A stretch of DNA of 64,000 nt from Yuukianura sp. NJ FZ-2021 (lineage: Eukaryota). The stretch spans positions 7,440,001-7,504,000 of the forward strand of contig CM102290.1 of NCBI GenBank assembly GCA_046563655.1, read 5' to 3'. Of this stretch, positions 4,147-45,224 are shown piece by piece; positions within the stretch are counted from its first letter, which is position 1; every line of letters begins with the position of its first letter. Below the pieces are notes generated by a model. The model saw only the letters and a list, made by a program, of their open reading frames with translations, was not told the origin of the DNA and made no database searches. The position numbers were made by a program, and so were the translations under genes.

Positions 4147-7100
4147 ATGTCGTCGAATCTGAATGCTGTCGCCCCAATTCATAAAAATCGATCGACGACA
4201 TTAGGAAGAATCAATAACTACATCTCAAAGGACAGTTTGTTCAAGAGTACAAATCTCTCCAGTCGGTTGTACTCCCAAGTCCTGCCAATTACAGGTAAAG
4301 TTGTATGATCATTTCTATAAATATGCTGATAGTACATAGTTTATCAATTCTAAAAGATTTGTGCATAATTTTTGTTGATGTTTTTTAGATATCGAAGTTT
4401 GGAGTTTGCCCGGAGGAGCTGGTGCATGGCAAAATTATACGTTTGACCAGATTACGCAACAACAGTATACTGCCACTCAGACTGGAACAACGTATGGACC
4501 AACATGGACTACACATTGGTTTCGAATTCATATACAAATCCCTCCAGAGTGGGAGGGGCAAGAAGTTCATTTCAGATGGTACACTGGATCAGAAGCGACA
4601 CTTTGGAACACGGCGGGGGACGTGCTTCAGGTAATATATTTTCTAAGAGACGAAGTTCGGTTTTGTTCATGAAACGTTTATTCTATTGTCCCTGTTTAGG
4701 GCTTAAGTCCGGGCTATCGAGAGGAGTTCATTTTGACCACCAGCTACGTTCCCGGAGGCCCAACGACGTACTACGTTGAAATGGCATGCAATGCAATGTT
4801 TGGAGCTGGTGCTGGAGGGGATGGATCTATAGGTAGATTTTCCCTGGGACCTTTCAAGGACGAACGTAACTTTTGTTAAATTGTCATTTTAGAACCGCCG
4901 CTTGAAAACAAATACTATACGTTGGAGAGGGTAGAAATTGCAGTGTTTGATCGAGCCATTTTTAAACTGTCCACAGACCTGGAGATGCTTTATCAAATGG
5001 CTGACAAGCTTGGCGAAACTCATATAGGGTATCAGGTAAATGACACCATAGCTTATATTAAATGTGTGTGAACATCATTGACTGAATGATGTTGACAATG
5101 TTGATTTATTTTAGGCAATGTTTGCCGGAAATGAAATGGTTAACAAAATGATCATGGGGCAAAACACGTACTCCTTATACCAATAAAAACATATTTTTAT
5201 CAAATCAGGTATTAGTGGCAATTAACCTATTCGATATGTTGCTTTTAGGGAAGCCGGGGAAATTGCGGACGGATTCTTTGCAGAGGGAACCGGAATCAAG
5301 GCTCATAAGTTAATTTCGATGGGTCATTGCCACATTGACACCGCCTGGTATGTTCCATGTTTGACTATACAAATTCTGAATTTAGCCGTACTTACGACCA
5401 GGTTAACTTTGCTTCCAGGCTTTGGCCGTACAGCGAAACGATTCGGAAATGTGCTCGAAGTTGGTCTGCTCAAATTCGCCTGCTGAATGAATACAACGAT
5501 GCCTATTTTGCTTGTTCACAGGTGATATTTCTCGATGCACTTTGGTTACTTAATGTTTACGGATGATTTACTATTAATTGTACTACTTTCAGGCTGTCCA
5601 GTATGCGTGGATGAAACAATGGTATCCTGGATTTTATGCGGAATTACAGGAAGCAGTGTCGGCTGGTAGATTTGTCCCCGTAAGTTCTACAATCCATACG
5701 CTTTTAACATAAACTTACTAAGGTTTTTCCATTTCCAGGTTGGAGGTACTTGGGTAGAAATGGACGGCAACATGCCCAGCGGCGAATCCTTCCTTCGACA
5801 ATTCTTCTATGGCCAGCGATATTTTCAGCAAGAATTCGGAATTACTTGCACCGAGTTTTGGCTTCCAGATACTTTCGGTTATTCGGCACAAATTCCGCAA
5901 ATCATAAAGGTAAAAATGACTATGAGAGAATGGAGCTGAATTCCTGTTGACAATTCGAGAGTAATCTCTGATTTTTTTTTTAAATATTTTCCTTACAGCA
6001 TGTTGGGATCAATCGCTTCATGACCCAGAAGATGAGCTGGAACCAAGTGAACAAGATGCCGAATCACAGTTTCAAGTGGGAGGTACGAATTTAAACAAAT
6101 GTAGGAAACTTATGAATGTCTCCTCTGAACACTGGTTGTTTCAGGGCATCGATGGATCGGAAGTCTTGGTACATTTCCCTCCAGGAAATACCTACAATGC
6201 AAATGGAAAGTAAGGGGACCTAACCATTGCGTTGCTTGTATGGATAAAATGTGATACTTAATTTAATATTTTCAGCGTCGATGAAGTATTGTTGTCTCAG
6301 AACAATTCCGAAGACAAAGGGCGAGCAAACGTTGGAATGTATTTGTACGGGTATGTTTGTCTCAGAATTTATCACACAGCTTAAGGGCAATCGTGAACGA
6401 GTGAACACGTTTATGAACCGTTTTTTAACAGGTATGGTGACGGTGGTGGTGGTCCAACCCGTAATATGATTGAACGTCAGCGTCGGATTCGAAATGTGGA
6501 CGGCGTGCCAAAGTAATTAACCCTTATCAAATATTTGAATGATATTTGAGTATAACTTGAGACGTTTGTGTTTGAAAATTCAGGGTAGAGTTCAACTCGC
6601 CCGAAGTTTTTTGGCAAACGTTGGAATTGGAATCAAGCAAACTATACAGGCAACGAATTTACACCACAAAGCACACAAAATTATGCTGCAAATGAACGAA
6701 GTATTGTTTGTATTGTGACTGTGAATTTTAACCTTGCTTTAGATGGGTGGGTGAGCTTTTTCTGGAACTCCACAATGGAACTTATACAAGCCAAGCCAAA
6801 ATCAAATGGTACAACAGGAAATGTGAATTTCTGTTCCAAGAAATGGAATTCTTGATGACAAACGCTTATGCAACAGGAAAGGTTACCGAAGCTGTTCTCC
6901 GAGCGTAAGTTACTCCGTGTAGTAAAGTACCCAATAAATTCCCTACTTAATAAGTAGTAAAATACTACGTGCTCTTTTAATCTTTCTGATTCTATAGGGA
7001 CATTGAAGTTGTGGACAATTGCTGGAAGGACTGCATGCTGAACCAGTTTCATGATGGTACAGAAACGACTCACTTTATTAATACTACTTACTCCTTTGGT

Positions 7101-9401
7101 TTTTGCAGAAATCTCACATCGCCCCAACCCATTCGAAATTCTTTGAACGATAAAAGAAAGTAGATAACTAAAAAAAAGTTAAAAATATTTAAAATGAATT
7201 TAAAGACGAATTTAAAAAAGCGGAAAGCATTCATAATTGACTTTTTAGTTTTTTAAATGTAATTTCTTAAATTAATTTGAAATATTTTAAACTTTGTTAA
7301 TTATTTTGTTCAATCCCGAGTGTAGTTGGGGCGATATGAGATTTCTGCAAAAACGTTCGTTTTTTTCTCGCTGATCACTCAGTAGAAAAACCCCTGTTTT
7401 TTCAGGTTAGGTTGCTAGGACTAGTAGAGAGCGTTTGAAATCGGAAATGATTTATAATTTTCTGTAGTTTTACCGGGATCCTGCATTGAGCTGATTGTAA
7501 CCGATGCCTGGGCCCTGTATGAACAAATTTTCACCACGATAATGCAACTTCGGAATGTGTATCATGGCTACATTCTCGGAACTGGAACTGATGCTCTTGT
7601 CTCCTACAATCCTTTGGCCTGGAACGTCAAGTCTGTGATTTTCAACAGCCCCGACACCGGAACTGGAATTCCGGATGGTCCCAATGTACAGGAAGTGGAG
7701 ATGGCGAGTACTCCATTTGAAGAATCGGTAGAAGGGAGGTATCGAATTCCCAGCAACTTCAAGGCGGCGCTGGTTCAGCTCAGTCCCTCCGGCTACAGTG
7801 AAGTGACTCCAATTGCTCCGACTAACCCAATATCTTATGCCGGTATTTAAACTTAATCAACAACATTGGTAGTTTATTCACAATCATGTTTATGTTGTTT
7901 CTAGCTGGACAATTTGTGAGCGGACCTCTCCAGTTACAAGTTGCGCAAACTGGATTGCCTTTTGAGCAGTTATTCTACACAAAAGCAGATGGGCAACAAG
8001 AAGCTGTGTTCAGCGACTTTGGCAACACAAACACCGAGCCTGCGATGCTTTACATCTATGATGATGTTCCTCTGTTCTGGTATGAGCTATAGAAATACAA
8101 GAAACATTGGAGTACGTTCTCGGTGAACTAATCGGTTGAATTATTTAGGGACGCCTGGGATATTGCTGACTACCATATGGAAACAAAGGCATTACCAAAC
8201 TTCAGCGGATTTGGAAACATTGAAGTGTTTGCGAACGGTCCAATAGTTGGTGGTTACAAATGGAGTGCCAATTTTGGCAACGGAAGTTCACTGACTCGTT
8301 ACACAATACTGCGAGCTGATTCTCCAATGGTAAGAGAAAAGTGCAGTGCAGTCATCGTTGATAATCCTAAATGGGAATGTCAAATCTTAGGTGGAGTATT
8401 TCCTTGATGTGGATTGGAGGGAAAATCATAAACTTCTGAAAGTTGAATTTCCCATGAACGTACTCTCCCGAGAGGCCGCTTTTGAAATCCAGGTGAAATT
8501 TCGAAAGTACTAAACAAGGTTTTCATGGAGTAATTTTGGGAATTCCCTTTTGATTTAGTTTGGGCATATCAAGAGAAATACGCACATCAACACTTCCTGG
8601 GACTGGGCTAAGTATGAAGTGTGCGGGCATAAGTGAGTCCAAGATGGCTAAACTTAAATGTTTACTTCAAACAGAATGTCTATCATTGCCTAAACTGGTT
8701 TCACATTTATCTTATAGGTGGGTTGACATCAGCCAGGCAGACAAAGGAGTTACGCTGATCACCGATTCAAAATATGGATTCAGCGTTCGGGGCAATGTGA
8801 GAAATGAAATCCCTAAATTCTTTGCATCAAAAATGTTGAAATTAGTACGAAACTCTTCTGTCCTAGGTTGTGAAGCTGTCGCTTTTAAAGGCTCCAAAGA
8901 ACCCTGATGCCAATTGTGATATTCACAGACATTACATTCACTACGCCATTTTACCCCATGAAGGAACATTTCAAGAAGCGGAAGTAATTCGTCGTGCGTA
9001 TGAACTTAACTACTTCTCAGCAAATAACGTTCCAGTCCTTTCAGCACCGTCGGGATTTTCCAGTTCTTGGGTAACTGTGGACCATCCTGCTGTGGTCGTA
9101 GGAGCTGTCAAACCGGCACATGATGTTATCGATGCACTTGTCGTTCGACTGTTTGAGAGTCATGGTGGAAGCGCCCGGGCAAGGTGAGAAAACAGTATTT
9201 TCGCTATTCCATTTACGTTCTCACGCATTAACTATGTTTAACAGAGTCCAGTTCGGATTCCCTGTAACTAAGGTGGAGCCATGCAATGGACTCGAGACGT
9301 CCCTCGGACCTGAAATTCCATTAACTAACAATGGATTTCAGACGGATTTCAACCCGTTTAAAGTTCAGAGCTTTCTGGTTACATTTGGCGCTGCCAAATA
9401 A
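4147..9401 (+). CDS. MAN2C1: Cytosolic alpha-mannosidase 2C1-like (GH38), multi-exon
   Basis: Exons encode [137 protein letters not shown] and [10 protein letters not shown]. These are hallmark GH38/MAN2C1 motifs. Stop TAA at 9399-9401. Confidence 0.93.
7099..7354. mobile_element. MITE-like inverted-repeat element in a mannosidase intron
   Basis: 30-bp inverted repeats GTTTTTGCAGAAATCTCACATCGCCCCAAC (7099-7128) and its reverse complement (7325-7354, 1 mismatch) around an AT-rich core. The host intron is ~410 nt versus ~60 nt for its neighbours. Confidence 0.7.
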
Positions 9402-9673
9402 GCCTAGGCAAAACTTGGATTATGTGTTGATTAGTTTAGTTTCACGTTAAATTGATTTCTGACGCAGATGTGAATCATATTTTAAAATAACGGGGTCCAT
9501 CGCTTTAACGTCTATGTGAGTTCTAATGTTCAGTCGCTTATACTTCAATTCAATTTTATTCACTTTGCCCCATTCTTTCGAAAATATACTAATTGTATCA
9601 ATAACGCATTAAATTAATAAAGTAGAAGTCAGTATTTTCAACGAAGTAAATCCGATTTTGAAACTAATAAGTG

Positions 9674-10426
9674 TCAAAAAACATCACCTTCCTCAAGAGC
9701 ATCGTCCTCACTGAGATAGCCTTCGCCATTGTCAAAGTAGTCGTTCATATAGTCATTCCCTTCATCCATTTCTTCATCTACTTCATCCTCATCCTCGTCG
9801 TCTCCATCTGCAATGTCTGGGTCCATAGATTTCGCGGCATTTTTCAGTTCCAAGTTCTCAGCCTGTGTCGGGTCAAGCTGCGCCAACTTGCGCTTCTTTT
9901 CACTGCTAGGTTCGTCATCTGACTCGGAATTCCGCTTCTGTTCTTTAACCGTATATTTCTCCAGGATTTCCTTGGTATCAACCACCTTTTCAACTTTGAC
10001 GGCCTGTAGCTTGTCGGATTTTGTAGAAAGCTCTTTAGGAAAGAACTTTTTGTCGAGGACGTAGTGCAAATTTGGTTGTACCTTCAGCGGGTGTTCGTAA
10101 GCGTCTGTATACCTAGGGACGTCAAATGCCGATCTGGTTACTTGGAGATTTATCGCGTAGTTACTCTTGAGGTACTTGTTGAAGTGAAGAAAGTCTGGGG
10201 CAAGGCAGGTTGTATTAACATCTAAATAGTCGTAGGCGGTTCCGTCGCAATATTCAGGGTAAAGTGGTGGAAGAACTGGTCGAACCATATCCATCGGTAC
10301 CGAGTCTGGAGTTGTGGTCTTGACCCCAGGAACTGGGCCTGCTTGTGGCTTTGATACGTTCGGTCCACCTCCTCTACCTCTTCCACCACGAGCCGGAAAA
10401 CCTCCCCTTCCACGTCCACGATTCAT
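9674..10426 (-). CDS. POLR3G: RNA polymerase III subunit RPC7/RPC31-like (250 aa, intronless CDS)
   Basis: ATG 10426 starts MNRGRGRGG. Contains PPLYP, RYTDAY, FFPKEL and an acidic tail DEEMDEGNDYMNDYFDNGEGY...DVF, characteristic of the RPC31/POLR3G family. Confidence 0.85.
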   Translation of the reverse strand: MNRGRGRGGFPARGGRGRGGGPNVSKPQAGPVPGVKTTTPDSVPMDMVRPVLPPLYPEYCDGTAYDYLDVNTTCLAPDFLHFNKYLKSNYAINLQVTRSAFDVPRYTDAYEHPLKVQPNLHYVLDKKFFPKELSTKSDKLQAVKVEKVVDTKEILEKYTVKEQKRNSESDDEPSSEKKRKLAQLDPTQAENLELKNAAKSMDPDIADGDDEDEDEVDEEMDEGNDYMNDYFDNGEGYLSEDDALEEGDVF

Positions 10427-10502
10427 TGTAATTGATAATTGAAACTTGATTGATGACTTCAACTTCCGTATCCTTATTACTATTGACCGATGGTGAATTA
10501 GT

Positions 10503-10824
10503 TCATGCGGTAATCGCCATTTGTCCGACGGTTTGTGTTGTCGAGTCTGCTCCGTTTGAGAACTGATCCGCGTCGTAGATGACTTTCAACAACAGCGTGC
10601 AACTAGGACATGTAGCAACATCTTCGCCGTTCTCCAAGTCCTCCTAAAACAAAGCAAATATTAGTTTTTCATATATCGTCAATCACCTAACAACGATATC
10701 TCACAACATAAATTACCTTTGTAATTTCAAATCGATCACCACAGGGGCAAGGGTAATAATAGGTCTCGGTGTCCTCGTCCCAATCAAAATCCTCAATTTC
10801 TATTTCGTCGTAGTACGAAGTCAT
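10503..10824 (-). CDS. DPH3: Diphthamide biosynthesis protein 3 (CSL zinc finger), 82 aa, 2 coding exons (10824-10717, 10643-10503); absent from the ORF track
   Basis: Translation [64 protein letters not shown]...AITA*, with a canonical GT-AG intron and the CPCG...CPSC motifs. Confidence 0.95.
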
Positions 10825-10829
10825 CCCCT

Positions 10830-11069
10830 ACTATGTGTTAGCCAATTTCACTTGCGTCGCAAGGTTTGAAATAAAATACTAAATACAACCTATCAATCAG
10901 TTCAGCGAAATTGATTGACGAAATTACAATTACCCTAACGTAAACCTCGCGAACTATGTGTTAGCCAATTTCACTTGCGTCGCAAGGTTTGAAATAAAAT
11001 ACTACAAAACCTATCAATAAGTTCAGCGAAATTGATTGACGAAATTACAATCAAGCGTAAACCTCGCGA
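10830..11069. repeat. ~123-bp tandem duplication directly upstream of the DPH3 start codon
   Basis: CTATGTGTTAGCCAATTTCACTTGCGTCGCAAGGTTTGAAATAAAATACTA...GTAAACCTCGCGA starts at 10831 and again at 10954, nearly identical. Confidence 0.92.
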
Positions 11070-11354
11070 CTCAACTAAACTACCGTCTAGTCTACTGTTC
11101 ACGGCCACGTGAGTCGGAGACGGAGATGAATCGGAAAGTCGCAAAAATGATATTTCAAAATTCCCGCGATTGATTTTTACCTCTCGTGGGTTACGAAAAA
11201 AGAGGATATATTATGAGGGGAGATCGACTGCTTTTCAACACGATTTGCTGTAAGTTTTTTTTTAACAAATACAAAAATTACTTGCAGCAAATCGAGACGT
11301 CGAAAATAGCTTGCAGAAAATGTTAATCTCAACACTTTCTGCAAGCTTTTTTCT

Positions 11355-11521
11355 TGCAGAAAACCGAGGCCTTGTTATAAAAAGGCTTGCGGAGAATCGA
11401 GCCGCCGTTATAAAAAGCTTACGAAGAATAGAGCCGCTGTTATAAGAGACTTGCGGGGAATCGAGCCGCTGTTATGAGCACATTGGAAAGAATCGTGACG
11501 TTGTTATAATAAGAAGCTTGC
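11355..11521. repeat. Degenerate ~31-bp minisatellite (~5 copies)
   Basis: A unit close to GAATCGAGCCGCTGTTATAAAAAGCTTGCGG repeats with substitutions and without unique spacers. Confidence 0.8.
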
Positions 11522-14210: not shown

Positions 14211-15457
14211 TTATTGAAAACCAGATAGGTTTGGAGATGTCATCGATAACTTCTCGCTCAAATGAATTTGAACACGAGTAAGTTCCGAAAGGTAAGTCGA
14301 CATTAGTAGGTCCTAATAAACAAACCATAAACACCGCGATTAACGATTGACATCATTAAAAAATAATCTCGGTTTTTTAAAGCTACCTTGATGTTGGAAT
14401 TCAGCATCCCATCCATATCCGATGATGTCATTTTCGGTACTGCTTGCACGACTTTCAAGAGACTCCTGCCGATAGTATTATCCGGAGTAATTTTATCCGT
14501 AATGACGTTCTCAACGTAGTCCAATACGGTCGTCAGCATGTTGTCCAAGTCCACCGTACTTTCAACAACTTGAGGTAATTCCCCCAATGGCTCGACCTTC
14601 CCTTGCAAACTACGTGCCCTCAGCAGAGTTTTCACTAAGAATGAAAAGTAGCCCGATAAGTCAGGCTTTCTTGACACGCAAATGTGTAAAAATGAACAGA
14701 TTTGAACTAAAAGACTTACTAGCGACGGCTTCTGGCGGATACTGAGTGATTTCCACAGGGACTGGACTAAACATGGCTCCTTGTGATCCATCCGGCACGC
14801 CAATGTCAACCCTTACGGAAGAAAAAACAATCATTGAGAAAACCTCAAAATGTTTACCTTATAACGTGTATTGAGCAATATGTAATTGACGGGAATACTT
14901 ACTGAACAAATGCTTTGATGTTCATCCGACCAGTTTTCATTGTTGTGTCAACAAGTAGTTGAATCGGATTCATGCATTGACGACCATAATAGTCATTGAT
15001 CGGAACAGCAATGCTGGAGACCTCGTACCCAGTAATCCACCATCCCACGATCACTTCCGACGGATGAACTTGTTTGTTGAGTTTATACATGACGTCAGCT
15101 AAGTGCATTTCAATACAAACCTAAGGGAATCAACTAAGTTGAATCATTTCATCATTTCAAGACGTGTTACAAATTCTATGACGCTATGAAGCTTGATTTA
15201 CCGTTCCATCAGTTGCACTTATACTGTGTGGCACTACAAAGCAATTGGTAACTTCCACGGTGTTGTTGTCAATGGAACCTGTCAAAGAATGTCAAGTCAT
15301 GAGTTTAGTTTTCATCGCCGTTGTGAAATTAAATGACAGAATGAGATTACTTACCAAGAAGTGTACCAAGGATTGAAGTTCTATCCATATTTCGTCGTTC
15401 GTACGCATTCACAATTTGGAACAGAACAGTTGGATGAACTTTGACTACCTGAGCCAT
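14211..15457 (-). CDS. eIF3f: Eukaryotic translation initiation factor 3 subunit F (MPN domain), 6 exons
   Basis: [22 protein letters not shown]...[38 protein letters not shown] and [29 protein letters not shown]. Stop at 14213-14211. Confidence 0.92.
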
Positions 15458-18089: not shown

Positions 18090-19949
18090 ATGGATGACAT
18101 GCTGGATGTAATGGACGGGGATGATGATACCCCATGGGAGCTAGTACTTTTCGAAGTATTCGAGCACTGTGTAATTCCCGTACTGCAACAAATTCTCCAC
18201 CGTTTGTTGCCTGTTTTATGTGTGACATTCTTCGTCGGAGAGCTATTACAACAAGGTACGTAAAATAAAATCCTGAGGTCAGGTTTGTGTGGCAAAATAT
18301 TAGGGACATGTTGATTGATTGATTGTTACCGTTTCTTCATTCTTACACAGGGTACACGGGAAAAGCAGCGAACATTATTTGCCTTGTTTCTGGGCTAATA
18401 GTTCTTAGAAGTTTTGTTGACGAACGAGAAGCCCTAGTCTTTGTTATTTTTACAGCGACGACGTACTTTTGGATCTATTTATCGGTCATGTATCGTAGAA
18501 GGACGTGCTACTCCTGCTGTTTTGCGATCTCAATACTTTACCTCATCGTCCGGTACATAAATTATTTCCGTTCGTATTTAACTTTTGGTGAATATATTAT
18601 GATCTAAAAATATTTTTACTTATAAACTTTAGTGAACACTATCCACTATTTGGGTATTCGCAATGGTCCGAAGCTCGGGGGATTACAATGATCGCTCTAA
18701 TGAAGACAATGTCCTTGATCTATGAGCTTACTGGCAACGAGCGCCTGGTAGTTCCAAATGTTGATGAGTACTTTGGATACATTTGGTTTCCTGGCTCACT
18801 TCCGTTTGGGCCGTGGGTCAGTTTCGCCGAACATTCCACTATCCTGGATCACACTGGTTGGCAAAAGGTCAGTTATAGTAACTACCATTAGTTTGGTTAG
18901 TACGTTTCAAAGAAGAAAGATTGTGGCCCAGCGTTACCTCTCTCTCTAACTTATCAGTGTTAAACTTAGTGTCATTTGCAGAACTACTTTCGCTGGTCAA
19001 TATCGATGTGGTGGAAGCTGATGTCTGCCGTTTGTTGTCTTCTGATGAGTACCTGTGGGTTCCATTATATTCGCCAATTTATGGAAATCGAATCAATGTT
19101 AGTTCTGGTTAACCCTAGTTATCTCTTAATCGAAAATTGTACATAATAAGAGTCTGCTATTTTCTTCGAAAATTCTACAGATATGGCGCACTATACTTCG
19201 ACGCGATCACAACACGGTTCAGCCACTACTTTATTTGCCACCTCTCTGAAGCTGTTTACATGCTTTGTGGGCCGCGTACTTCAGAATCATGTCTATCTTC
19301 GCCGGTAGTTTCTCCTATGCATATCGAATTCCCACGGTCTCTGGTGGACGTTGTCGTCCATTGGAATATCCCGATGCACCGTTGGCTGAAACGACGTAAG
19401 TGCACAACACAGTTAAACTTTTTTTTTTCTGAACAGAAATTAACTTTTATCTCTTGCACCACAGATATCTATATCCCACTAAGGGCTGAAGGAGTGGGAA
19501 CCACAATCGCTGCCATTGCGACATTTCTAGTTAGCGCAATGCTTCATGGTCTCAGTATTCACTTGACTGCCGTATTGGTTTCAATTGCAATTTTCAGTTA
19601 CATCGAGTACAGTTTTCGAGAACTATTGACTACGCTATTCGACTCGTGTGTTCGGGTTCGACCGTGCGTTGGCTGTGATCATAAGTACCGGTCTTCTCAA
19701 CTCCTTGTTCAATTGTCGAATTTTGGACTATATTTGCTGGCTATGTTCAATCTGGCTTATCTCGGTGCTCTGCTGGACGAAGGGCAAACTTCAAAAAATG
19801 CTGAGGTTTTCAGTCTTACTGATCTTACAAACCAATTTGAACGTTGGGAAGAAGCCGAATTTACGAGTCACAGAATAATGCTGGGATTGTTCTTGTTTAC
19901 GGTTCTTACTCGGAGCCTTCTTCTAGCCGTCGACTCTTCCAGAACGTAA
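18090..19949 (+). CDS. PORCN: Porcupine, Wnt O-palmitoleoyltransferase (MBOAT family), multi-exon
   Basis: MIALMKTMSL, YFGYIWFPGSLPFGPWVSF, RFSHYFICHLSE, EFPRSLVDVVVHWNIPMHRWLK, FLVSAMLHGLSIHLTAVLVSI (catalytic His), C..C.H.Y and FNLAYLG. Confidence 0.92.
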
Positions 19950-21577: not shown

Positions 21578-24500
21578 CTAAAGTTCTCGAGACGTCAAGA
21601 GAGCTTCATCATCCACCGGATGGCTAGCGACACAGTCATAGTCATAAGTACAGCAAAGTTGTCCATCCTAAAAGAGGAAACATACTAATATGAGGTCATA
21701 GTTCATATTTTACTGCTAGCATTGGATCTATGCTCAAGATTTTGATTTTGATTTAAACACATTTAAAAAAATGTCTTTGAATATTTCTTGAGCAAAGATG
21801 CGGATTGAACAGATTTGATTTTCTTATGAATAAATTAGCCATTAAGACAAACAGGGCACAAAACATATTATAGGAGGTGCTTGGATCAGTAAATATGGGG
21901 AAAAAATCGAAAAGAAAAGAAAGCGTGAACTGCAAGCACAATGTTTTTCTAAAGATGGAATTAATTTCAGTTCTTCTGATTCACTTTTCATGCAAACATG
22001 CAACGATTCTGACACCAAGTACTTTGCGTTGTGAACATTAAGGTGAAAATGTCATGATCTAAATAATAAAACATTAAAATCCCAAATACGAATTTTTAAA
22101 GCGATGAAAATAATGAAATTTTCAATTTAATGAAATTCAGTTTTTAGTTTTAATTCCTTCTTTTGTTTTGAGTCTAGTACGTTAAGAATATTGTATGTTT
22201 GGGTATCTTCCGCTTGCATGGAATTTTACAAATCAAGTTGTGCGTTTACAGTTTCCGACTGACGTCAAGTATTCATTGAAACAAAAAAAAAGTTAATGAG
22301 TAAATTTCATTGTTTAAAAGGAACCAAATTACAGACATTTGGACAACTTGACTTGTAATTTTAAGCACAATTTGTTTGTCCTTGGTTGACATGATTTTGA
22401 ATTTGAATGGAAGCACTTTAGGTTATTTTTATTTAGCAAGAGCATGGATTTCGTGTCATGTTTCTGAAGGCGGCATTGGACACGCTATAGGTGGGGAAAG
22501 TAAGAGAAAGCAAAGCAGAAATAGACACATACCGAGTGTTTCAAGCCCCCTAGTAATTTTAATTAGATAATTTTCTAAATTTTACGAATTTTTAGTGCTT
22601 TCCCCCATCTCACAGCATTGGACCACCCACGCTTTAAAGGAATTTACTCCCCACCCAAGAGAAAATTTTTACGGGGGGTAATGGTGCACTCGGTAAGTGC
22701 ACTAAGAGAGTGAAAAGTGTCCACTGTTTACGTCAACTGACAACTCAAAATTTAGTCAGTTGACCAAAAATAAATCCAAAACGAACCAAAAATTATGAAA
22801 AGCGTCAGCAACTAAAATATAAAATCAAACAGTGAGTGTGATAAAAACAATTAATTTACCGAAGCACACAAATTCCTTCATTATAGCTCACCGATTTAGC
22901 GCAGAGCGGCACCTGTTAGGGTTAATAAGGTTTACAACAATTTGTTAATTTTTTGTAAATTACAACACAGTATCAAATAGTCAATCAAAATAAGTTTTGA
23001 AAAAAAAACTACTATTTTTTTTAAAAGGAGAAATATTAGCAGCCACAATTTTTGTTGAGGATATTCATGCATGTTTCAGTTAATTGAAAATGTTAAACAT
23101 TAGTTTCAAGCAGTTATGTACTGTTGGGTGTACTTTTTCAAATTTTTAAAAACTGAGTATCAGTTACTAAGAAAAATTGAAAAAAAAATTGGATTTGGAG
23201 GATGAAAATGACTTACGTGGCACTTGCAGGATATGCAGTGATTATGTGGCAGTGTGATTTGGGTCCCGGACTTAATTTTAGTTTCTAGAAGATTACATTC
23301 GTCGAGGTAGGAACTGTTTCGGTGCGTATGGGAACATTGGTCTTCGGGACAACGGTAACAACAGTCCCCAGGGGGCAGCACTGGGTTGGGACAGTTTAAT
23401 GGTGGGCAGTCCATTTTCCAACAGTCGATTTCTCCATTCAAGCACTCACAAGTCTCACATCGGAAGTGCCAAGTCTCTCCTATTTTTCAAATTGAAGGAG
23501 GTCATCAAAGGTCAAAGAGCTAACTTTCAGTTTTTGTCATTTCGAATTTTACCTGATTTGTAGGTCATCTCTGGATAGAGTTGATGTCGACAGGATTTGA
23601 GTGGAGGGGGCTGCGTGAGGTTCGCATTTGCGCAGGCGCTGCAGCACTGATGCGGACTTTCAACGCTGTTGGAGCCCTCAAGGGAGCAGAGATTGAGGCA
23701 AGTGACGTCAGACGGAGGGTGACAGGTCGTTGTACCCGGAGTCGTACAGGTACAGACGCTGCAGTCTTCACTGAACCAAGTTGAGCTCGGTGGATGTGAC
23801 TTCCCGCCTTCATAGCAACCTAAACGCATTCCAGCCCCATTCAAAGTCAGTTGCTGACGGTGTTAATCATCATCTACAGTTAAAAGTAATTAAGAACCTC
23901 ACCCCGTGAGCAGTCTTTGTTTGAGTCGAGGCAGTGGCATTCGTATGAGCCAATGGTGTTGAAGCATTTCATGCCGGGAATACTTCCGCAGACATGTTCC
24001 CTCTCGCACTCGTCTACATCTAGAATGGATAAGAGTTGTCAGTTTCCACTTAAGTCAGCACTGTTCAAATAGTGCTGAGGTTTGAGTACAAACGGAATGA
24101 AGGCTGGCGTGCTCTGATTGGCTCTTCACAAGTGGTGTGGCTCAACTTGTCGTTATTTATAGTTTGGAACCAGTGGAACTCTCGAGTCTGGCCGCCATTT
24201 GCCAAGAAATAGTGACAAGACAAGAAGAATGAGACTCACCTTGGCACCGAGCCGTTGCACCGTCAATGAGAGTAGCCTGGAACCCATCGTCACATTGACA
24301 GTGGAACCACCCCGGCTTGTTGACACAGGAGGCATGGGCTGGACACAGCGCCGAATTTGAAACGCTTGAATTCCTCCGTTCCTCAGCACACTCGTCAATG
24401 TCAGAGTCACAGTATTGACCTGTCCAACCTGCTCGACAGGAACAAACCCCTGGAGCGATACAAATTCCACCGTTTTCACAAGTCCGATTGCAAATCGCTG

Positions 24501-27375
24501 GGAAATCAAAATTCAGAAAAAGTCAACATTTGAATTTTGGCGACAAGTCTAAGTGAATTGAAAAAAAAACTGAGAATCGAATTTGGTTTTTTGAAGACGT
24601 ATGAAATTACGCAGAGAATTTTTTTTTATACTTACGTGAGCAATGGAATCCGTTTCCAGTGTATCCCTCTTTGCAGCGGGGACAACTGTAGGAACCTTTA
24701 GTGTTTTCACAAATGGCATTGGGATGACACTGATTTGACCCGCCCGGGGCACACTCATCTTCGTCTTCACATGTGAATTGGTCAAGTCTCTTGAATCCTG
24801 CTACGCATGAGCAAATGTAGCTCCCAGGCGTGTTAACACACACTGTACTTTTGGGGTTGCAATGATTTCGATTTTCGGGAAGGCACTCGTCAATGTCCTC
24901 GCAAGAGGACTTTCCATCCCCAACGAAACCGGCGTTGCAGTGACACATAAACGTTGTCTGCAGATTAACGCAGGTTGCATTGGCATGACACTTGTCGGCA
25001 TGACTAGCACAATAGTCGGTTCCTGATAGTGAGGATCACATAAGAATTAAACGTAATCCCCATGCGCAGAGTCATTGGAGTTAGTGAATTGTGGAACTTA
25101 CCTGGACAAATTTTGCAGCATTCCTCAGGAATGCTGATTTGTTCAGAAGGTGGACAGGAGAGGGTGGGGCAGGATGTAATGGGTTCCATGGGATTGCACT
25201 TTAGGGATCCATCTTCACATCTACATTTTCTGGAATAGTAGGCTTGTCCAGCACATTCTCGGAAAGTTACTTCACCCTCGTCGTACCAGACTTTGTTTCG
25301 ATAGCACTCTAAATAATGTAAAAAATTTAAGTGTAAAATTTAACTTTAACTTTTGAAAAATTCATAGTTAAACTGGTATTGAAGAATTACTTTGGCACTT
25401 CGGACAGCACTCTCCTACTCTTTGGGTTGGATTTTGACATGGATCTAATGGACACTGAACACGTCGACACTCAACTTCACCTTTCTAAAATTAAAAACAA
25501 ACTCGAAATTCTAAATTTCTATTTTGATTTAGCAAGTTCACTAAAAATTTTGAAACTCACATGACATGTACAGTTTTCACAGTTTTGGTTCCATTTTGTT
25601 CCGTCAGGGACGATGTGAGTATCGTTTATTCTACAAGGTTTGTTGCATTCGCACTCCTCGACTTCATTTAGTCTTGCCTCCGCTTTACTCAACTGAATTT
25701 TCCAAAATTCTTAAAAATTTTTTTCTAAACTTTATGATTTGAAAATGAAAATCAAAATGGCTTACCCGATCTGCAAGAATTTGGAACTGGGACTGGAGTG
25801 CCGCAAAGGAGACTTTCAGCATTGTGTAATCGCTGCAAGTCGGGCAAGTGGAGTCCATTTGTGGACATTGTGACAAGTAACCATGGGGTCCAAAAGTAAG
25901 CCTAAGGTCCTGCATTGCTCCCTGTTGGATTTCAAAAAAATTCAAAATTTCTCCTAAATATTATCGAAAATTGCAGAAAACTGCAAATTTGATAGTCAAG
26001 TGACATGTTTTTTTATGTTGGCTGACGTTCTACTCCATATAACTAACCTGGTACAAGAAGTGAGAGGTGGTTTTCTGGCCTATCCAGAGTGACATGTTTC
26101 TGGCGCTGAAGATGGCCGTGGCCGGGTCAAATCTTAGTACGCGCCTATACAAAAGATGACAATCGACTAGGATCTCTACTTGGGAGGCTGAGAAGGAAAT
26201 GGCGAGGCGATGCCAACTTCCGTCTGCCAAACGAAATGGGAATGTTTCCACCAGAGACCCAGAAATCACGCGCAGTTCATTCTTCCGACCGCTGGACTGA
26301 ATTTCTAGAGCACTGAACAATTCATAACCAAAAATATAGCAACTTGTACCCAAATGTCACTTCAATGTCAACAACTCACCTGGATAACCCTCTGGAGAAT
26401 GCAAGGAGAGTTCCAACATTATTAGGACTTTGCTTAACTATTGCTGAGATCGTGAACTCATTTGCACCGATTTCACTGAATTTCCCACGGACTCTCTCGG
26501 CCCAATCCCCAGAGACCATTGTTTGCCTCACTTCACCTACAATAAAGTGGAAGTAAAGAATTTACTTGGATAAGTAAATAATATGATAAATTTATAAAGT
26601 TTTGATTAGTAATTAAAATATTTAAGTTGTTTCATAATTTATGTTTCCTGCAAATCAGAAACTACACGTTATAACCTTGCCCCTTTCAGTTTTTGTCACT
26701 TTGCCAAAAAAAATTAGTGTAAATTATGAACCAAAAGATTAGCCAATTTTTAAAAAAAATACACAAAATCGTTAGTGTTTTTGAATCATAAATTTGGTAC
26801 AATTCACGTCAAACAACATTGAGTAAATATCAAAAACGTTTGAGGTAAATAACCTTTTCAAATATTTACGGCTGTTTGTGTCTGGACTCTTTTTTTTTTG
26901 TATTCGAGAGAAAGTTTAATAAAGTTGAAAAGTTTTTGGAACAATTTGAGTCCAACACTTTACGAGTTCAAAAAAGAATTAGCGTCAGTCGTCTGAGGTC
27001 ATTGAGCCCATGTTCCCAAAAGGTTTTAAAAATTTTAAAAATGAAAAATTTCGTTTTAAAAATCTTACCTGTGAAAATAACCCCTGGACTTAGCGTGTGA
27101 ATCCCCATGCCAAGGGTTATTCCTGAGTAGGTACTATTGTGCAGATGAAGACTGTCAAAGAGATCCAACTGGACAAAGTCTGGACCGCCAACTGGAACAG
27201 AAACAAACACTTAGGTTAGTGCATGATGACCTTTGACCTTGACCTAGCCTATTCTTCTCCTGGACAAAAATTCTGTTAAAATACCGGTGAGTGAGAGCAT
27301 AGAGATGGACATGATGACAAAGAGGGAGACTCTGATGGACGGAGATGACAAAGAGACCAAGTAGCAGAATGACAT
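21578..27375 (-). CDS. NELL: NELL1/2-like secreted protein (signal peptide, TSPN/LamG, coiled coil, VWC and EGF repeats), proximal-promoter isoform
   Basis: MSFCYLVSLSSPSIRVSLFVIMSISMLSLT|VGGPDFVQLDLF, LEIQSSGRKNELR, FPFRLADGSWHRLA, GAMQDLRLTFGPHGYLSQCPQMDSTCPTC, Ca-EGF repeats (DIDEC..., DEDEC...), VWC motifs (CWKMDCPPLNCPNPVLPPGDCC). Last exon DGQLCCTYDYDC...REL* at 21667-21578. Confidence 0.9.
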
Positions 27376-43568: not shown

Positions 43569-45224
43569 ATGTCGGGCAAGAAGATTACCGATCCAATGGA
43601 TTTCATGAAGGATTTTATTGCTGGAGGTATTTCAGCAGCAATTTCCAAAACGGCTGTTGCCCCAATTGAGCGTGTCAAATTGCTTCTTCAAGTTCAGCAT
43701 GTCTCAAAGCAAATTGCTGCAGATAAGCAATACAAGGGTAAGAACTGGCTTTCAAAATATCTAGGTCAACTTATATAGCTCTATAGACATAGGATTTAGC
43801 GTTATATGGTGTCTATATTTTCTTAAAACTCCGCACACGGTAGCACATCTAAAAACCCTATTTTATTTCTTCCTCTTCCATATCCTAATCATTGATCTTT
43901 CCTTGCGAAAGCGAACCTGGCGTCTAAAGTGGGCATTGCATATTTTGGCAATATATCAGAACTTATCCCAAACTATTTATAACTTTTTTCACAGCTTTTC
44001 ATCTTACTATTTAGTGTAGTGTGACTACTACTGCAAGATGATATTCGCTTGTTTTTGGTAACGCAGTGTAAAGTGTAAACCATTCCCAATTTAAATGAGC
44101 CCTTGGTCTTTGAACCACAGCCGAAGGGCATATTATACTAGTGTTTTTGATGATACGATAATGTAAGCTACATGGAAAACTGATGATGATGAAAATAATT
44201 ACTTAAAATCAATTACTTAATTCTGTGTTTTCCAGGGATGATCGATTGCTTCGTCCGAATTCCAAAGGAGCAGGGTTTCCTGGCTTTCTGGAGAGGAAAC
44301 TTGGCCAACGTCATCCGGTATTTCCCAACCCAGGCATTGAACTTTGCTTTCAAGGATAAGTGAGTGAAATTAATTATTATTTTTTGAATAATTACAACTA
44401 TTATGGCTGTCATTACAACATTTGACGAATGAATTTAAAATAGGTACAAGCAAGTGTTCTTGGGAGGTGTTGACAAGAACACCCAGTTCATGCGGTACTT
44501 TCTCGGAAACTTGGCTTCCGGTGGTGCTGCTGGAGCTACTTCCCTTTGCTTTGTGTACCCCCTTGACTTCGCTCGAACACGGTTAGTCTTAAAAATATTG
44601 TGCAGCATGGGTTTCAGATGCAGATTGATTGCTAATTTGTGATTTGACTTATACATAGGTTGGCTGCCGACGTAGGAAAGTCTGGTGGTGAACGTGAATT
44701 CAGTGGATTAGGCAACTGTCTTACCAAGATCTTCAAGTCAGATGGTCTCGTCGGTCTCTACCGAGGATTCGGTGTGTCTGTACAAGGTATTATCATCTAC
44801 CGAGCCTCCTACTTCGGATTCTTCGACACAGCCAAGGGAATGTTGCCTGACCCCAAGAAGACACCCTTCCTCGTCTCATGGGCTATTGCTCAAACCGTGA
44901 CCACCGTTGCTGGTATCATGTCCTATCCCTTCGACACCGTGCGTAGGCGTATGATGATGCAGTCTGGACGCTCCGATAAGCTTTACAAGGTAAAGTCGCT
45001 TTACAATAATTGCAAGGCAGTAAACTATGTTCAAACGTACGTTAAATTCATTACACACTGAATTGCTTTGCTTTTTTCAGAACACAATTGACTGCTGGGT
45101 GAAGATTGCCAAGAACGAGGGCCGAAATGCCTTCTTCAAGGGAGCCTTCTCTAACATTCTCCGTGGAACTGGTGGAGCCCTTGTACTTGTACTCTACGAC
45201 GAAATTAAGAACTTCCTGTTCTAA
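43569..45224 (+). CDS. ANT: Mitochondrial ADP/ATP translocase; exons 43569-43737, 44236-44359, 44444-44581, 44659-44989, 45081-45224; non-coding exon ends at 43133
   Basis: [80 protein letters not shown] and the RRRMMM signature. Confidence 0.98.

What the first reader, a model, noticed from the sequence alone, without database searches (positions are those of the whole stretch)
9674..10824. Probable dicistronic DPH3-RPC7 (POLR3G-like) transcript
Seen: the DPH3 stop (10505-10503) and the RPC7 ATG (10426) are on the same strand and only 76 nt apart. The spacer has no AATAAA, no ATG and no pyrimidine-tract acceptor. RPC7 is intronless, and the first minus-strand AATAAA I found after DPH3 lies beyond RPC7 (9560-9555). 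Since 76 is not a multiple of 3, readthrough would not fuse the proteins. Inference: one mRNA encodes both, with the 82-aa DPH3 acting as a functional uORF and RPC7 made by re-initiation or leaky scanning. Established: DPH3/Kti11 supports diphthamide synthesis and Elongator tRNA wobble modification, and Pol III makes tRNAs, so this would be an operon-like coupling of tRNA synthesis and modification. Whether it is already described in this lineage is unknown to me.
Basis: partly seen in the sequence, partly recalled or inferred. Interest (0 to 1): 0.8.

Follow-up and report, generated by a model that had tools for sequence, protein, structure and literature searches.

The report
Conserved DPH3–RPC7 two-gene transcription unit
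Two small housekeeping genes, DPH3 and the RNA polymerase III subunit RPC7, lie 76 bases apart on one strand, and the same pairing recurs in distant crustaceans, so they are probably carried on one messenger RNA, as many fruit-fly gene pairs are.

Summary
A two-exon DPH3 (82 aa) ends at 10505-10503. An intronless RPC7/Rpc31 gene (250 aa) starts at 10426 on the same strand. The 76-nt spacer has no ATG, no AATAAA/ATTAAA and no acceptor-like AG. The first canonical poly(A) signal is at 9560-9555, after RPC7.

No RNA data could be obtained for this organism, so the transcript itself is unseen.

The comparative evidence favours the dicistronic reading. In the shrimp Halocaridina rubra the two proteins have consecutive accessions on one 107-kb contig. 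Eight equalities were seen among 50 x 118 values, against 0.83 expected by chance. I judge two of the eight to be chance.

The 1.4-1.6 kb contigs carry an uninterrupted DPH3 plus a complete RPC7, as a spliced mRNA spanning both genes would. One of these pairs belongs to the window's own springtail-like lineage.

Leaky scanning is unlikely. Re-initiation, or an additional internal promoter, remains open. I read this as a new member of the known arthropod dicistronic-locus class.

The parts
10717..10824 (-). DPH3 exon 1 (ATG at 10824-10822; 36 codons)
   Evidence: One search gives the translation. Zn_ribbon_CSL profile positions 1-31, E 2.7e-13. P0033 (82 aa) is identical over this exon and reads straight across the junction.
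10644..10716 (-). DPH3 intron, 73 nt, GT..AG, phase 0, after the residues EITK
   Evidence: One search gives the intron sequence; the Pfam profile continues 31/32 across it; the ORF of P0051 runs off after the same EITK residues, as if it read into an intron at the same position (inference).
10503..10643 (-). DPH3 exon 2 with stop TGA at 10505-10503
   Evidence: One search gives the translation. Zn_ribbon_CSL profile positions 32-55, E 2.2e-07.
10427..10502 (-). 76-nt intercistronic spacer, 68% A+T, with no ATG, no AATAAA/ATTAAA and no acceptor-like AG
   Evidence: the fold of 10530-10400 is no more stable than shuffled sequence (z = -0.35).
9674..10426 (-). RPC7 / Rpc31 (POLR3G-like) CDS, single exon, 250 aa, stop at 9676-9674
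   Evidence: PF11705, E 1.1e-15; it aligns colinearly with relatives from the shared MNRG.. start to the C-terminal residue.
9555..9560 (-). First canonical AATAAA downstream of both ORFs, 114 nt after the RPC7 stop. It is the presumed shared poly(A) signal.
10815..11051 (.). Two tandem copies (121-123 nt apart, 90-98% identical) of the sequence that abuts the DPH3 ATG. This is the presumed 5' UTR/promoter region. There is no ATG on the minus strand in the 296 nt upstream of the DPH3 start.
   Evidence: (repeat families D3 and D4).

Best explanation
DPH3 and RPC7 form one conserved transcription unit. A promoter upstream of DPH3, in or beyond the duplicated 10815-11051 region, drives a pre-mRNA from which the 73-nt DPH3 intron is removed. 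That RNA is polyadenylated only after RPC7, using the AATAAA at 9560-9555. The result is a mature dicistronic mRNA of roughly 1.2 kb plus the 5' UTR.

DPH3 is translated by ordinary scanning. RPC7 is then translated from the same mRNA, most likely by 40S subunits that resume scanning after terminating at the DPH3 stop and re-initiate 76 nt downstream at the first AUG, which has a good context (A at -3). A monocistronic RPC7 isoform from an internal start site may exist in addition, as at many Drosophila dicistronic loci.

Shown here: the gene identities, the geometry, the absence of canonical signals in the spacer, and the conserved linkage. Inferred: the spanning mRNA in this organism and the re-initiation step.

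A likely origin, also inferred, is that an intronless RPC7 copy came to lie in the DPH3 3' region in an early pancrustacean. RPC7 is a single ORF both here and on the decapod genomic contig, while the neighbouring genes are split into small exons.
For: (1) Geometry and signals. The genes are on the same strand with a 76-nt spacer. The spacer has no ATG, no AATAAA/ATTAAA and no acceptor-like AG, and the first canonical poly(A) signal lies after RPC7.

(2) Direct evidence of adjacency in a decapod. In Halocaridina rubra, Rpc31 and DPH3 carry consecutive accessions (KAK7080542.1 and KAK7080543.1) on one 107,069-nt contig.

(3) Matching contig lengths. I compared 50 RPC7 contig lengths with 118 DPH3 contig lengths. 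Eight were exactly equal, against 0.83 expected by chance. Six of the eight are concordant in sequence relatedness and in data source:
- 107069
- 7028 (P0013/P0067)
- 1605 (P0154/P0066)
- 1612 (P0027/P0073, both from JGI+Logan, 2 contigs each)
- 1476 (P0210/P0069)
- 1420 (P0156/P0039, both from JGI+Logan, 1 contig each)

(4) Cross-checks between pairs. P0013 and P0154 are 95% identical in RPC7, and their partners are 100% identical in DPH3. P0027 and P0210 are 84% identical in RPC7, and their partners are 90% identical.

(5) Evidence that a short contig is spliced. The DPH3 ORF on the 7028-nt contig (P0067) breaks off after ..VIYD and continues T-V-S-stop, which is how a GT donor would read. 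Its near-identical relative P0066, on the 1605-nt contig, is a full-length 83 aa. So the short contig looks like a spliced cDNA that also holds the 222-aa RPC7. This is an inference.

(6) Relevance to this lineage. The 1420-nt pair is of the window's own lineage: its DPH3 is 81% identical to the window's.

(7) Precedent. A 76-nt spacer lies well inside the stop-to-start distances of curated Drosophila dicistronic loci, which run from overlaps to 351 nt in part 1 of 6 of File S1 of PMC4528330.

(8) Start-codon context. The RPC7 AUG is the first AUG after the DPH3 stop and has A at -3. No AUG occurs in the 296 nt upstream of the DPH3 start.
Against: No RNA of this organism was seen.

Except for Halocaridina rubra, I infer that the two proteins share a contig from equal contig lengths. 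I never saw the contigs, so gene order, strand and spacing in the relatives are unknown. Two of the eight equalities look like chance. The first is 1420 with P0164. The second is 1074, P0208/P0077, where the DPH3 partner is only 71% identical to the Halocaridina DPH3 although the RPC7s are 84% identical.

In the springtail Orchesella cincta the annotated DPH3 and RPC7 lie on different contigs, of 18,699 and 107,571 nt. So the linkage is not universal.

Eighty-two codons is long for efficient re-initiation. PMC2276209 cites work in which re-initiation drops sharply beyond about 34 codons.

Weak poly(A) hexamer variants exist inside RPC7 and at its start codon. An initiator-like TCA motif sits in the spacer, so separate or overlapping transcripts cannot be excluded.

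The spacer shows no unusual RNA structure that would suggest an IRES.
Confidence: 0.6

Rival explanations
1. There are two overlapping but separate mRNAs. RPC7 has its own compact promoter and start site inside the spacer, DPH3 exon 2 or the intron, and RPC7 protein comes essentially from that monocistronic mRNA. DPH3 transcripts either end at a weak non-canonical signal near the start of RPC7, or run on to the RPC7 poly(A) site with RPC7 acting as an untranslated 3' UTR.
For: The locus is compact. The convergent plus-strand gene has its own ATTAAA/AATAAA at 9608/9616, so opposite-strand 3' UTRs already overlap here. Weak hexamer variants are present: AATGAA at 10427, AATACA at 10216 and GATAAA at 10154. 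The motif TCAATCAA occurs in the spacer (10453-10446) and twice in the duplicated region upstream of DPH3. At 114 of the 159 curated Drosophila dicistronic loci, at least one gene also has monocistronic transcripts (PMC4528330). Re-initiation after long ORFs is usually inefficient.
Against: TCAATCAA is not enriched in the window: 9 matches against 6.7 expected, and 21 of 100 shuffles reach 9. No canonical poly(A) signal exists for DPH3 before RPC7 ends. Tight linkage kept across lineages whose RPC7 proteins are only 36-47% identical is what shared transcription predicts. Independent genes would not be expected to stay linked in this way. The short contigs in relatives appear to carry both complete ORFs.
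Confidence: 0.3
2. A polycistronic precursor is resolved into two monocistronic mRNAs, either by spliced-leader trans-splicing or by cleavage in the spacer, as in nematode-type operons.
For: The genes are on the same strand with a short spacer. From recall, not from any call, spliced-leader trans-splicing has been reported in some crustacean groups.
Against: The spacer has no poly(A) signal for the upstream gene and no acceptor-like AG. Pyrimidine content in the 20 nt before each AG is 5-12, against 14 at the real acceptor. If the short contigs in relatives are cDNA, they still hold both ORFs. From recall, spliced-leader trans-splicing is not known in hexapods or decapods.
Confidence: 0.05
3. 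The adjacency is chance, arising in a compact genome, with no shared expression or function.
For: A stretch free of poly(A) hexamers of this length is common in the window. The two genes are on different contigs in Orchesella cincta.
Against: The same pair is adjacent in Halocaridina rubra, with consecutive accessions. It also appears on shared contigs in at least four further unnamed sources. Eight length equalities were seen against 0.83 expected by chance.
Confidence: 0.03

Closest known systems
Drosophila melanogaster dicistronic loci as curated by FlyBase (Misra et al. 2002; Crosby et al. 2015, PMC4528330). I read passages and part 1 of 6 of File S1.
   Same: Two unrelated, complete, same-strand ORFs with a short stop-to-start distance. 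In the part of File S1 that I read, distances run from overlaps to 351 nt, with many between 40 and 110 nt. One promoter and one poly(A) site are presumed. The downstream ORF needs internal or resumed initiation. The class is common in Drosophila: 159 pairs, 2.5% of protein-coding genes.
   Different: No spanning cDNA has been seen for this locus. The DPH3-RPC7 pair was not found in the supplementary lists under the names I tried (Dph3, Polr3G, Kti11, diphthamide, polymerase III). It was also not found under CG numbers that I only recalled and could not verify. File 1 of the supplements was not searchable. The organism here is not a fly: its closest named relatives are springtails.
Drosophila CG33786/CG33785 dicistronic pair (PMC2276209; PMC5372737; PMC4528330 File S1).
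   Same: It is a conserved arthropod dicistron that pairs a translation/tRNA-modification factor with a transcription-machinery protein. CG33786 is named Tcs2, for t6A synthesis, in PMC5372737. The partner is a 108-aa ORF labelled 'Transcription' in PMC2276209. The pairing is conserved to Endopterygota by EST evidence. Both genes are listed as encoded only by di/polycistronic transcripts.
   Different: The genes are different, and neither is DPH3. I recall, but could not verify, that CG33785 is a Pol III subunit. The gene order also differs: there the transcription protein is the upstream ORF. The two ORFs overlap by 1 nt instead of being 76 nt apart.
MOCS2A/MOCS2B bicistronic mRNA (mentioned in PMC2276209 and PMC4528330; passages only).
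   Same: An ancient, widely conserved animal bicistron encoding two proteins that work in one pathway.
   Different: The MOCS2 products are subunits of one enzyme. DPH3 and RPC7 have no known physical or pathway link beyond both bearing on tRNA and translation.
Polycistronic nuclear loci of green algae (PMC7896298 and PMC11892635; search listing and abstract starts only).
   Same: [quoted passage not shown]
   Different: According to the title of PMC11892635, the algal loci use leaky scanning. Here four intervening AUGs argue against that route. The lineages are unrelated.
Nematode-type SL2 operons (recalled, not from any call).
   Same: Closely spaced same-strand genes under one promoter.
   Different: Such operons need a poly(A) signal for the upstream gene and a trans-splice acceptor in the spacer. 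Neither is present here.

Membership tests
DPH3/KTI11 (CSL zinc-ribbon, PF05207) | A match to the CSL zinc-finger profile above the curated cut-off, with the four zinc-binding Cys | tested here: met
   exon 1 scores 49.9 bits (cut-off 29.2) over profile positions 1-31. Exon 2 scores 30.9 bits over positions 32-55. CPC and CPSC are visible. The protein is 85% identical to the 82-aa P0033.
RPC7 / Rpc31 (POLR3G-like, PF11705) | A match to the Rpc31 profile above the cut-off, with the conserved acidic C-terminal motif | tested here: met
   58.8 bits against a cut-off of 30.2; the acidic C-terminal block is conserved with named RPC7 proteins (Allacma fusca, Orchesella cincta).
Dicistronic mRNA locus (FlyBase sense, PMC4528330) | Two complete ORFs on the same strand, not overlapping or barely overlapping, each encoding a distinct conserved protein | tested here: met
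Dicistronic mRNA locus (FlyBase sense, PMC4528330) | A processed mRNA (cDNA or RNA-seq) that spans both ORFs | tested here: inconclusive
   No RNA run was listed for the window. In relatives, 1420-1612-nt contigs are inferred to hold an uninterrupted DPH3 plus a full RPC7. The inference rests on equal contig lengths; the contigs themselves were not seen.
Dicistronic mRNA locus (FlyBase sense, PMC4528330) | No polyadenylation signal and no transcription start between the two ORFs | tested here: inconclusive
   There is no AATAAA or ATTAAA in the spacer, nor before 9560. Weak variants exist. A start site cannot be tested from sequence alone.
Dicistronic mRNA locus (FlyBase sense, PMC4528330) | An intercistronic distance within the range of curated cases | tested here: met
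   The spacer is 76 nt. Curated cases run from overlaps to 351 nt in part 1 of 6 of File S1.
SL trans-spliced operon | A poly(A) signal for the upstream gene followed by a pyrimidine-rich trans-splice acceptor in the spacer | tested here: not met
Termination-reinitiation with overlapping or abutting stop and start (viral TURBS type) | Stop and restart codons that overlap or lie within a few nucleotides of each other | tested here: not met
   The two codons are 76 nt apart. The definition of this family is recalled, not taken from any call.
DPH3-RPC7 fusion protein | A single polypeptide carrying both PF05207 and PF11705 | tested here: not met
   The two frames differ. None of the 29 RPC7 hits of 137-438 aa carries PF05207. 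Of the 53 hits in the representative library, the only two with long N-terminal extensions (P0170, P0172) have no Pfam match.

The most novel reading that the evidence does not exclude
DPH3-RPC7 is an ancient pancrustacean two-gene unit, older than the split between hexapods and decapods. It arose when an intronless RPC7 copy settled in the DPH3 3' region. RPC7 has no promoter of its own and is made only by re-initiation after translation of the 82-codon DPH3 ORF. The supply of a Pol III-specific initiation subunit would then be tied directly to the cell's translational state and to a factor needed for eEF2 diphthamide and Elongator-dependent tRNA modification.
Probability: 0.25. Interest if true: 0.6.

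Novelty: new member of a known kind. Interest (0 to 1): 0.42.

Why it matters
Dicistronic mRNAs are an accepted but poorly understood class in arthropods, and only a few pairs are known to be conserved beyond insects. A pair kept from a springtail-like hexapod to decapod crustaceans would be a natural test-bed for how animal ribosomes reach a second ORF after a long first one.

The pair also links a Pol III subunit to a factor for eEF2 and tRNA modification, echoing the Drosophila CG33786/CG33785 pair. That makes coordinated control of tRNA supply and tRNA/translation-factor modification a testable idea.

There is a practical point as well. Gene predictors that allow only one CDS per transcript will tend to miss one of the two genes at such loci.

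Tried and rejected
RNA evidence: the look-up of sequencing runs listed no RNA holder for 9400-11200, so read laying could not be used. No whole genome is held for the window.

DNA of relatives: two scans of metagenome contigs, one with the RPC7 protein and one with a 3-sequence alignment, confirmed no relative. A 10-sequence alignment was too variable to use. I therefore never saw the contigs that hold the relatives' genes.

A search with the first 130 aa of RPC7, limited to proteins of 71-228 aa, was meant to find an RPC7 fragment on the 925-nt contig of the closest DPH3 (P0033). It returned only P0006, 1 hit among 470 candidates. It also missed P0005, so this blank says little.

Fused DPH3-RPC7 proteins: none were found.

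Internal promoter motif: TCAATCAA is shared by the spacer and the DPH3 upstream region, but it is not enriched in the window. The sigma-70/terminator scan does not apply to a eukaryote and I ignored it.

IRES-like structure: the fold of the spacer region is no better than shuffled sequence.

Earlier scan notes: nothing relevant.

Literature: six searches that paired a gene name (Dph3, diphthamide or Polr3G) with a dicistronic, bicistronic or polycistronic term, or Dph3 with Polr3G, found no paper describing this pair. A polycistronic + Collembola search found only unrelated papers. The Drosophila RNA polymerase subunit table (PMC7704258) is not held as text, so I could not get the CG number of fly Polr3G. 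My recalled CG number for fly Dph3 matched only methylation-probe papers. It is absent from the searchable supplements of PMC4528330. Whether the pair is dicistronic in Drosophila therefore stays open.

I first suspected from memory that CG33785/CG33786 was this very pair. The papers show that CG33786 is Tcs2, not DPH3, so I rejected that idea.

Full report
**What is in the sequence.** On the minus strand, an ATG at 10824 opens a 36-codon exon (10824-10717). A 73-nt GT..AG intron follows (10716-10644). A second exon, 10643-10503, ends in TGA at 10505-10503. The two exons match the Pfam CSL zinc-ribbon profile end to end, positions 1-31 and 32-55. An 82-aa protein from an unnamed source, P0033, is identical to the window's product for the first 64 residues and reads straight across the predicted junction. 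So the DPH3 gene model is sound.

Seventy-six bases downstream, an ATG at 10426 opens a 250-codon uninterrupted ORF ending at 9674. It matches Pfam RNA_pol_3_Rpc31 at E 1.1e-15. It aligns colinearly with relatives that share the same N-terminal start.

**Signals.** The spacer (10502-10427) is 68% A+T and has no ATG, AATAAA or ATTAAA. Its five AG dinucleotides are preceded by 5-12 pyrimidines in 20 nt. The genuine DPH3 acceptor is preceded by 14. The first canonical poly(A) hexamer on this strand after the DPH3 stop is AATAAA at 9560-9555, 114 nt beyond the RPC7 stop.

Two cautions apply. Hexamer-free stretches of this length are common in the window: 20% of gaps are that long, and they cover 52% of the bases. 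Weak variants are present at 10427, 10216, 10154 and 9957.

Reading through the DPH3 stop enters RPC7 out of frame. Read from stop to stop, the RPC7 frame is open back to 10585, but it holds no upstream in-frame ATG. The spacer region folds no better than shuffled sequence (z = -0.35).

In the spliced mRNA, four AUGs lie between the DPH3 and RPC7 start codons, two of them with A at -3. The RPC7 AUG has A at -3. No AUG occurs in the 296 nt upstream of the DPH3 start.

**No direct RNA evidence.** No RNA run was listed, no genome is held, and both metagenome scans came back empty. The transcript in this organism is therefore unobserved.

**Comparative evidence.** The closest named relatives of both proteins are springtails. 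For DPH3 these are Orchesella species, 89% identical over exon 1. For RPC7 they are Allacma fusca and Orchesella cincta. The organism is probably a springtail or a near relative, but I did not establish this.

The protein searches report, for each hit, the length of the longest contig that encodes it. I compared the 50 RPC7 contig lengths that I collected with the 118 DPH3 lengths listed. The RPC7 lengths came from 27 of the 29 hits, plus 3, 15 and 5 cluster members or representatives. The DPH3 lengths came from the best 120 of 299 hits; two rows gave no length. Eight values were exactly equal, where 0.83 is expected by chance.

One equality is confirmed independently. In the shrimp Halocaridina rubra, Rpc31 and DPH3 are KAK7080542.1 and KAK7080543.1 on a 107,069-nt contig, which makes them neighbouring annotated genes.

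Five more equalities are concordant in both data source and sequence relationship:
- 7028 nt: P0013/P0067.
- 1605 nt: P0154/P0066. These RPC7s are 95% identical to those of the 7028 pair, fall in one 90% cluster with Panulirus ornatus Polr3G, and their DPH3 partners are 100% identical.
- 1612 nt: P0027/P0073.
- 1476 nt: P0210/P0069. The RPC7s are 84% identical to those of the 1612 pair, and the DPH3s 90%.
- 1420 nt: P0156/P0039. Both come from the same two sources, with one contig each.

I judge the other two equalities to be chance. P0164 also has a 1420-nt contig, but it comes from one source only and is a divergent RPC7. P0208/P0077 share 1074 nt, but that DPH3 is only 71% identical to the Halocaridina DPH3, whereas the RPC7s are 84% identical.

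**Why this points to a spanning mRNA and not only to adjacency.** The DPH3 ORF on the 7028-nt contig stops matching after ..VIYD and continues T-V-S-stop, which is what a GT donor site would read as. Its partner species' DPH3, on the 1605-nt contig, is a complete 83-aa ORF. So the 7028-nt contig looks genomic, and there RPC7 is still a single 222-aa ORF. The 1605-nt contig looks like spliced cDNA that also carries RPC7. This step is an inference.

A 1420-1612-nt molecule holding about 250 nt of DPH3 and about 700 nt of RPC7 leaves only 470-680 nt for both UTRs and the spacer. That fits the window's geometry. The P0156/P0039 pair belongs to the window's own lineage by DPH3 (81% identity). Its RPC7 is only 40% identical to the window's, and decapod RPC7s are 40-47% identical. 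The linkage therefore spans deep divergences.

**Evidence against, and limits.** I never saw the contigs, so order, strand and spacing in the relatives are unknown. Orchesella cincta has the two annotated genes on different contigs, of 18,699 and 107,571 nt. This may be a real loss, or an unannotated second copy. No RPC7 fragment was found for the 925-nt contig of the nearest DPH3, but that search was insensitive. No fused DPH3-RPC7 protein exists among the 29 hits or the 53 hits.

**Mechanism.** The best-supported model has one promoter upstream of DPH3, one poly(A) site after RPC7, and a mature dicistronic mRNA.

Leaky scanning past four AUGs is unlikely. The spacer shows no IRES-like structure. 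Stop and start are too far apart for the viral stop-start coupling mechanism. That leaves re-initiation by post-termination 40S subunits over a 76-nt AUG-free spacer as the most economical route. However, an 82-codon first ORF is long for this; PMC2276209 summarises work showing a sharp drop in re-initiation beyond about 34 codons.

FlyBase curators note that 114 of the 159 Drosophila dicistronic loci also have monocistronic isoforms for at least one of the two genes. They also note that most pairs do not meet the requirements of a scanning mechanism (PMC4528330). An additional internal RPC7 promoter is therefore a serious rival, and the two models can coexist.

**Comparison with what is known.** The locus fits the FlyBase class of dicistronic loci in geometry. 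The spacer is within the curated range, which runs from overlaps to 351 nt in the part of File S1 that I read.

The nearest thematic parallel is Drosophila CG33786/CG33785. [quoted passage not shown] I had wrongly recalled that pair as being DPH3-Polr3G, and the papers corrected me.

Six full-text searches found no description of a DPH3-RPC7/POLR3G dicistron. They cover only the open-access library. File 1 of the PMC4528330 supplements and the subunit table of PMC7704258 could not be read. An existing database annotation, for example in FlyBase or RefSeq, therefore cannot be excluded.

**Verdict.** The dicistronic interpretation is plausible and now has comparative backing, but no direct proof. 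I rate it a new member of a known kind, of moderate interest.

Noticed in passing
window 10815-11051: The roughly 120 nt that abut the DPH3 ATG are tandemly duplicated. Copies lie 121-123 nt apart and are 90-98% identical. The copy boundary falls just inside the DPH3 start codon region, so the presumed 5' UTR/core promoter is present twice.
   Followed up: partly
window 11353-11500: An array of 32-nt tandem repeats, about 3-4 copies at 63-80% identity, lies about 550 nt upstream of DPH3. Its function is unknown.
   Followed up: no
window 11106-11111: A palindromic CACGTG E-box lies about 285 nt upstream of the DPH3 ATG (read). From recall, such boxes mark Myc-type targets among growth and Pol III-related genes. 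I did not test this.
   Followed up: no
window 10427-10585: The RPC7 reading frame stays open for 53 codons upstream of its ATG, across the spacer and into DPH3 exon 2, without an in-frame ATG. This is probably chance, but a frameshift or an alternative splice could in principle join the two proteins.
   Followed up: partly
window 4379-9401 (+) and 9608-9621 (+): A multi-exon alpha-mannosidase (GH38) gene on the plus strand converges on RPC7. Its ATTAAA/AATAAA at 9608/9616 lie beyond the RPC7 AATAAA at 9560-9555 (minus strand). The two 3' UTRs should therefore overlap by roughly 100 nt on opposite strands.
   Followed up: partly
window 14306-14812 (-), 19119-19946 (+), 23163-25339 (-), 44648-45058 (+), 48081-48482 (-): Other gene fragments were recognised by Pfam: a MitMem_reg domain (JAB/MPN-family C-terminal region), MBOAT, a VWC/EGF-rich secreted protein, a mitochondrial carrier, and a nuclear-receptor ligand-binding domain. 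All are split into short exons, in contrast to the intronless RPC7.
   Followed up: no
proteins P0005 and P0006 (relatives of the window's RPC7): P0005, on a 6337-nt contig, starts at the Met that corresponds to residue 45 of the window's protein. P0006, on a 959-nt contig, ends early at the position of residue 164 with unrelated residues. Either RPC7 has introns in those relatives, or the contigs are imperfect.
   Followed up: no
proteins P0034 and P0036 (Orchesella dallaii): This springtail has two annotated DPH3 proteins, of 89 and 93 aa, on different contigs. DPH3 has therefore been duplicated in at least one springtail lineage, which complicates the reading of the unlinked Orchesella cincta genes.
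   Followed up: no
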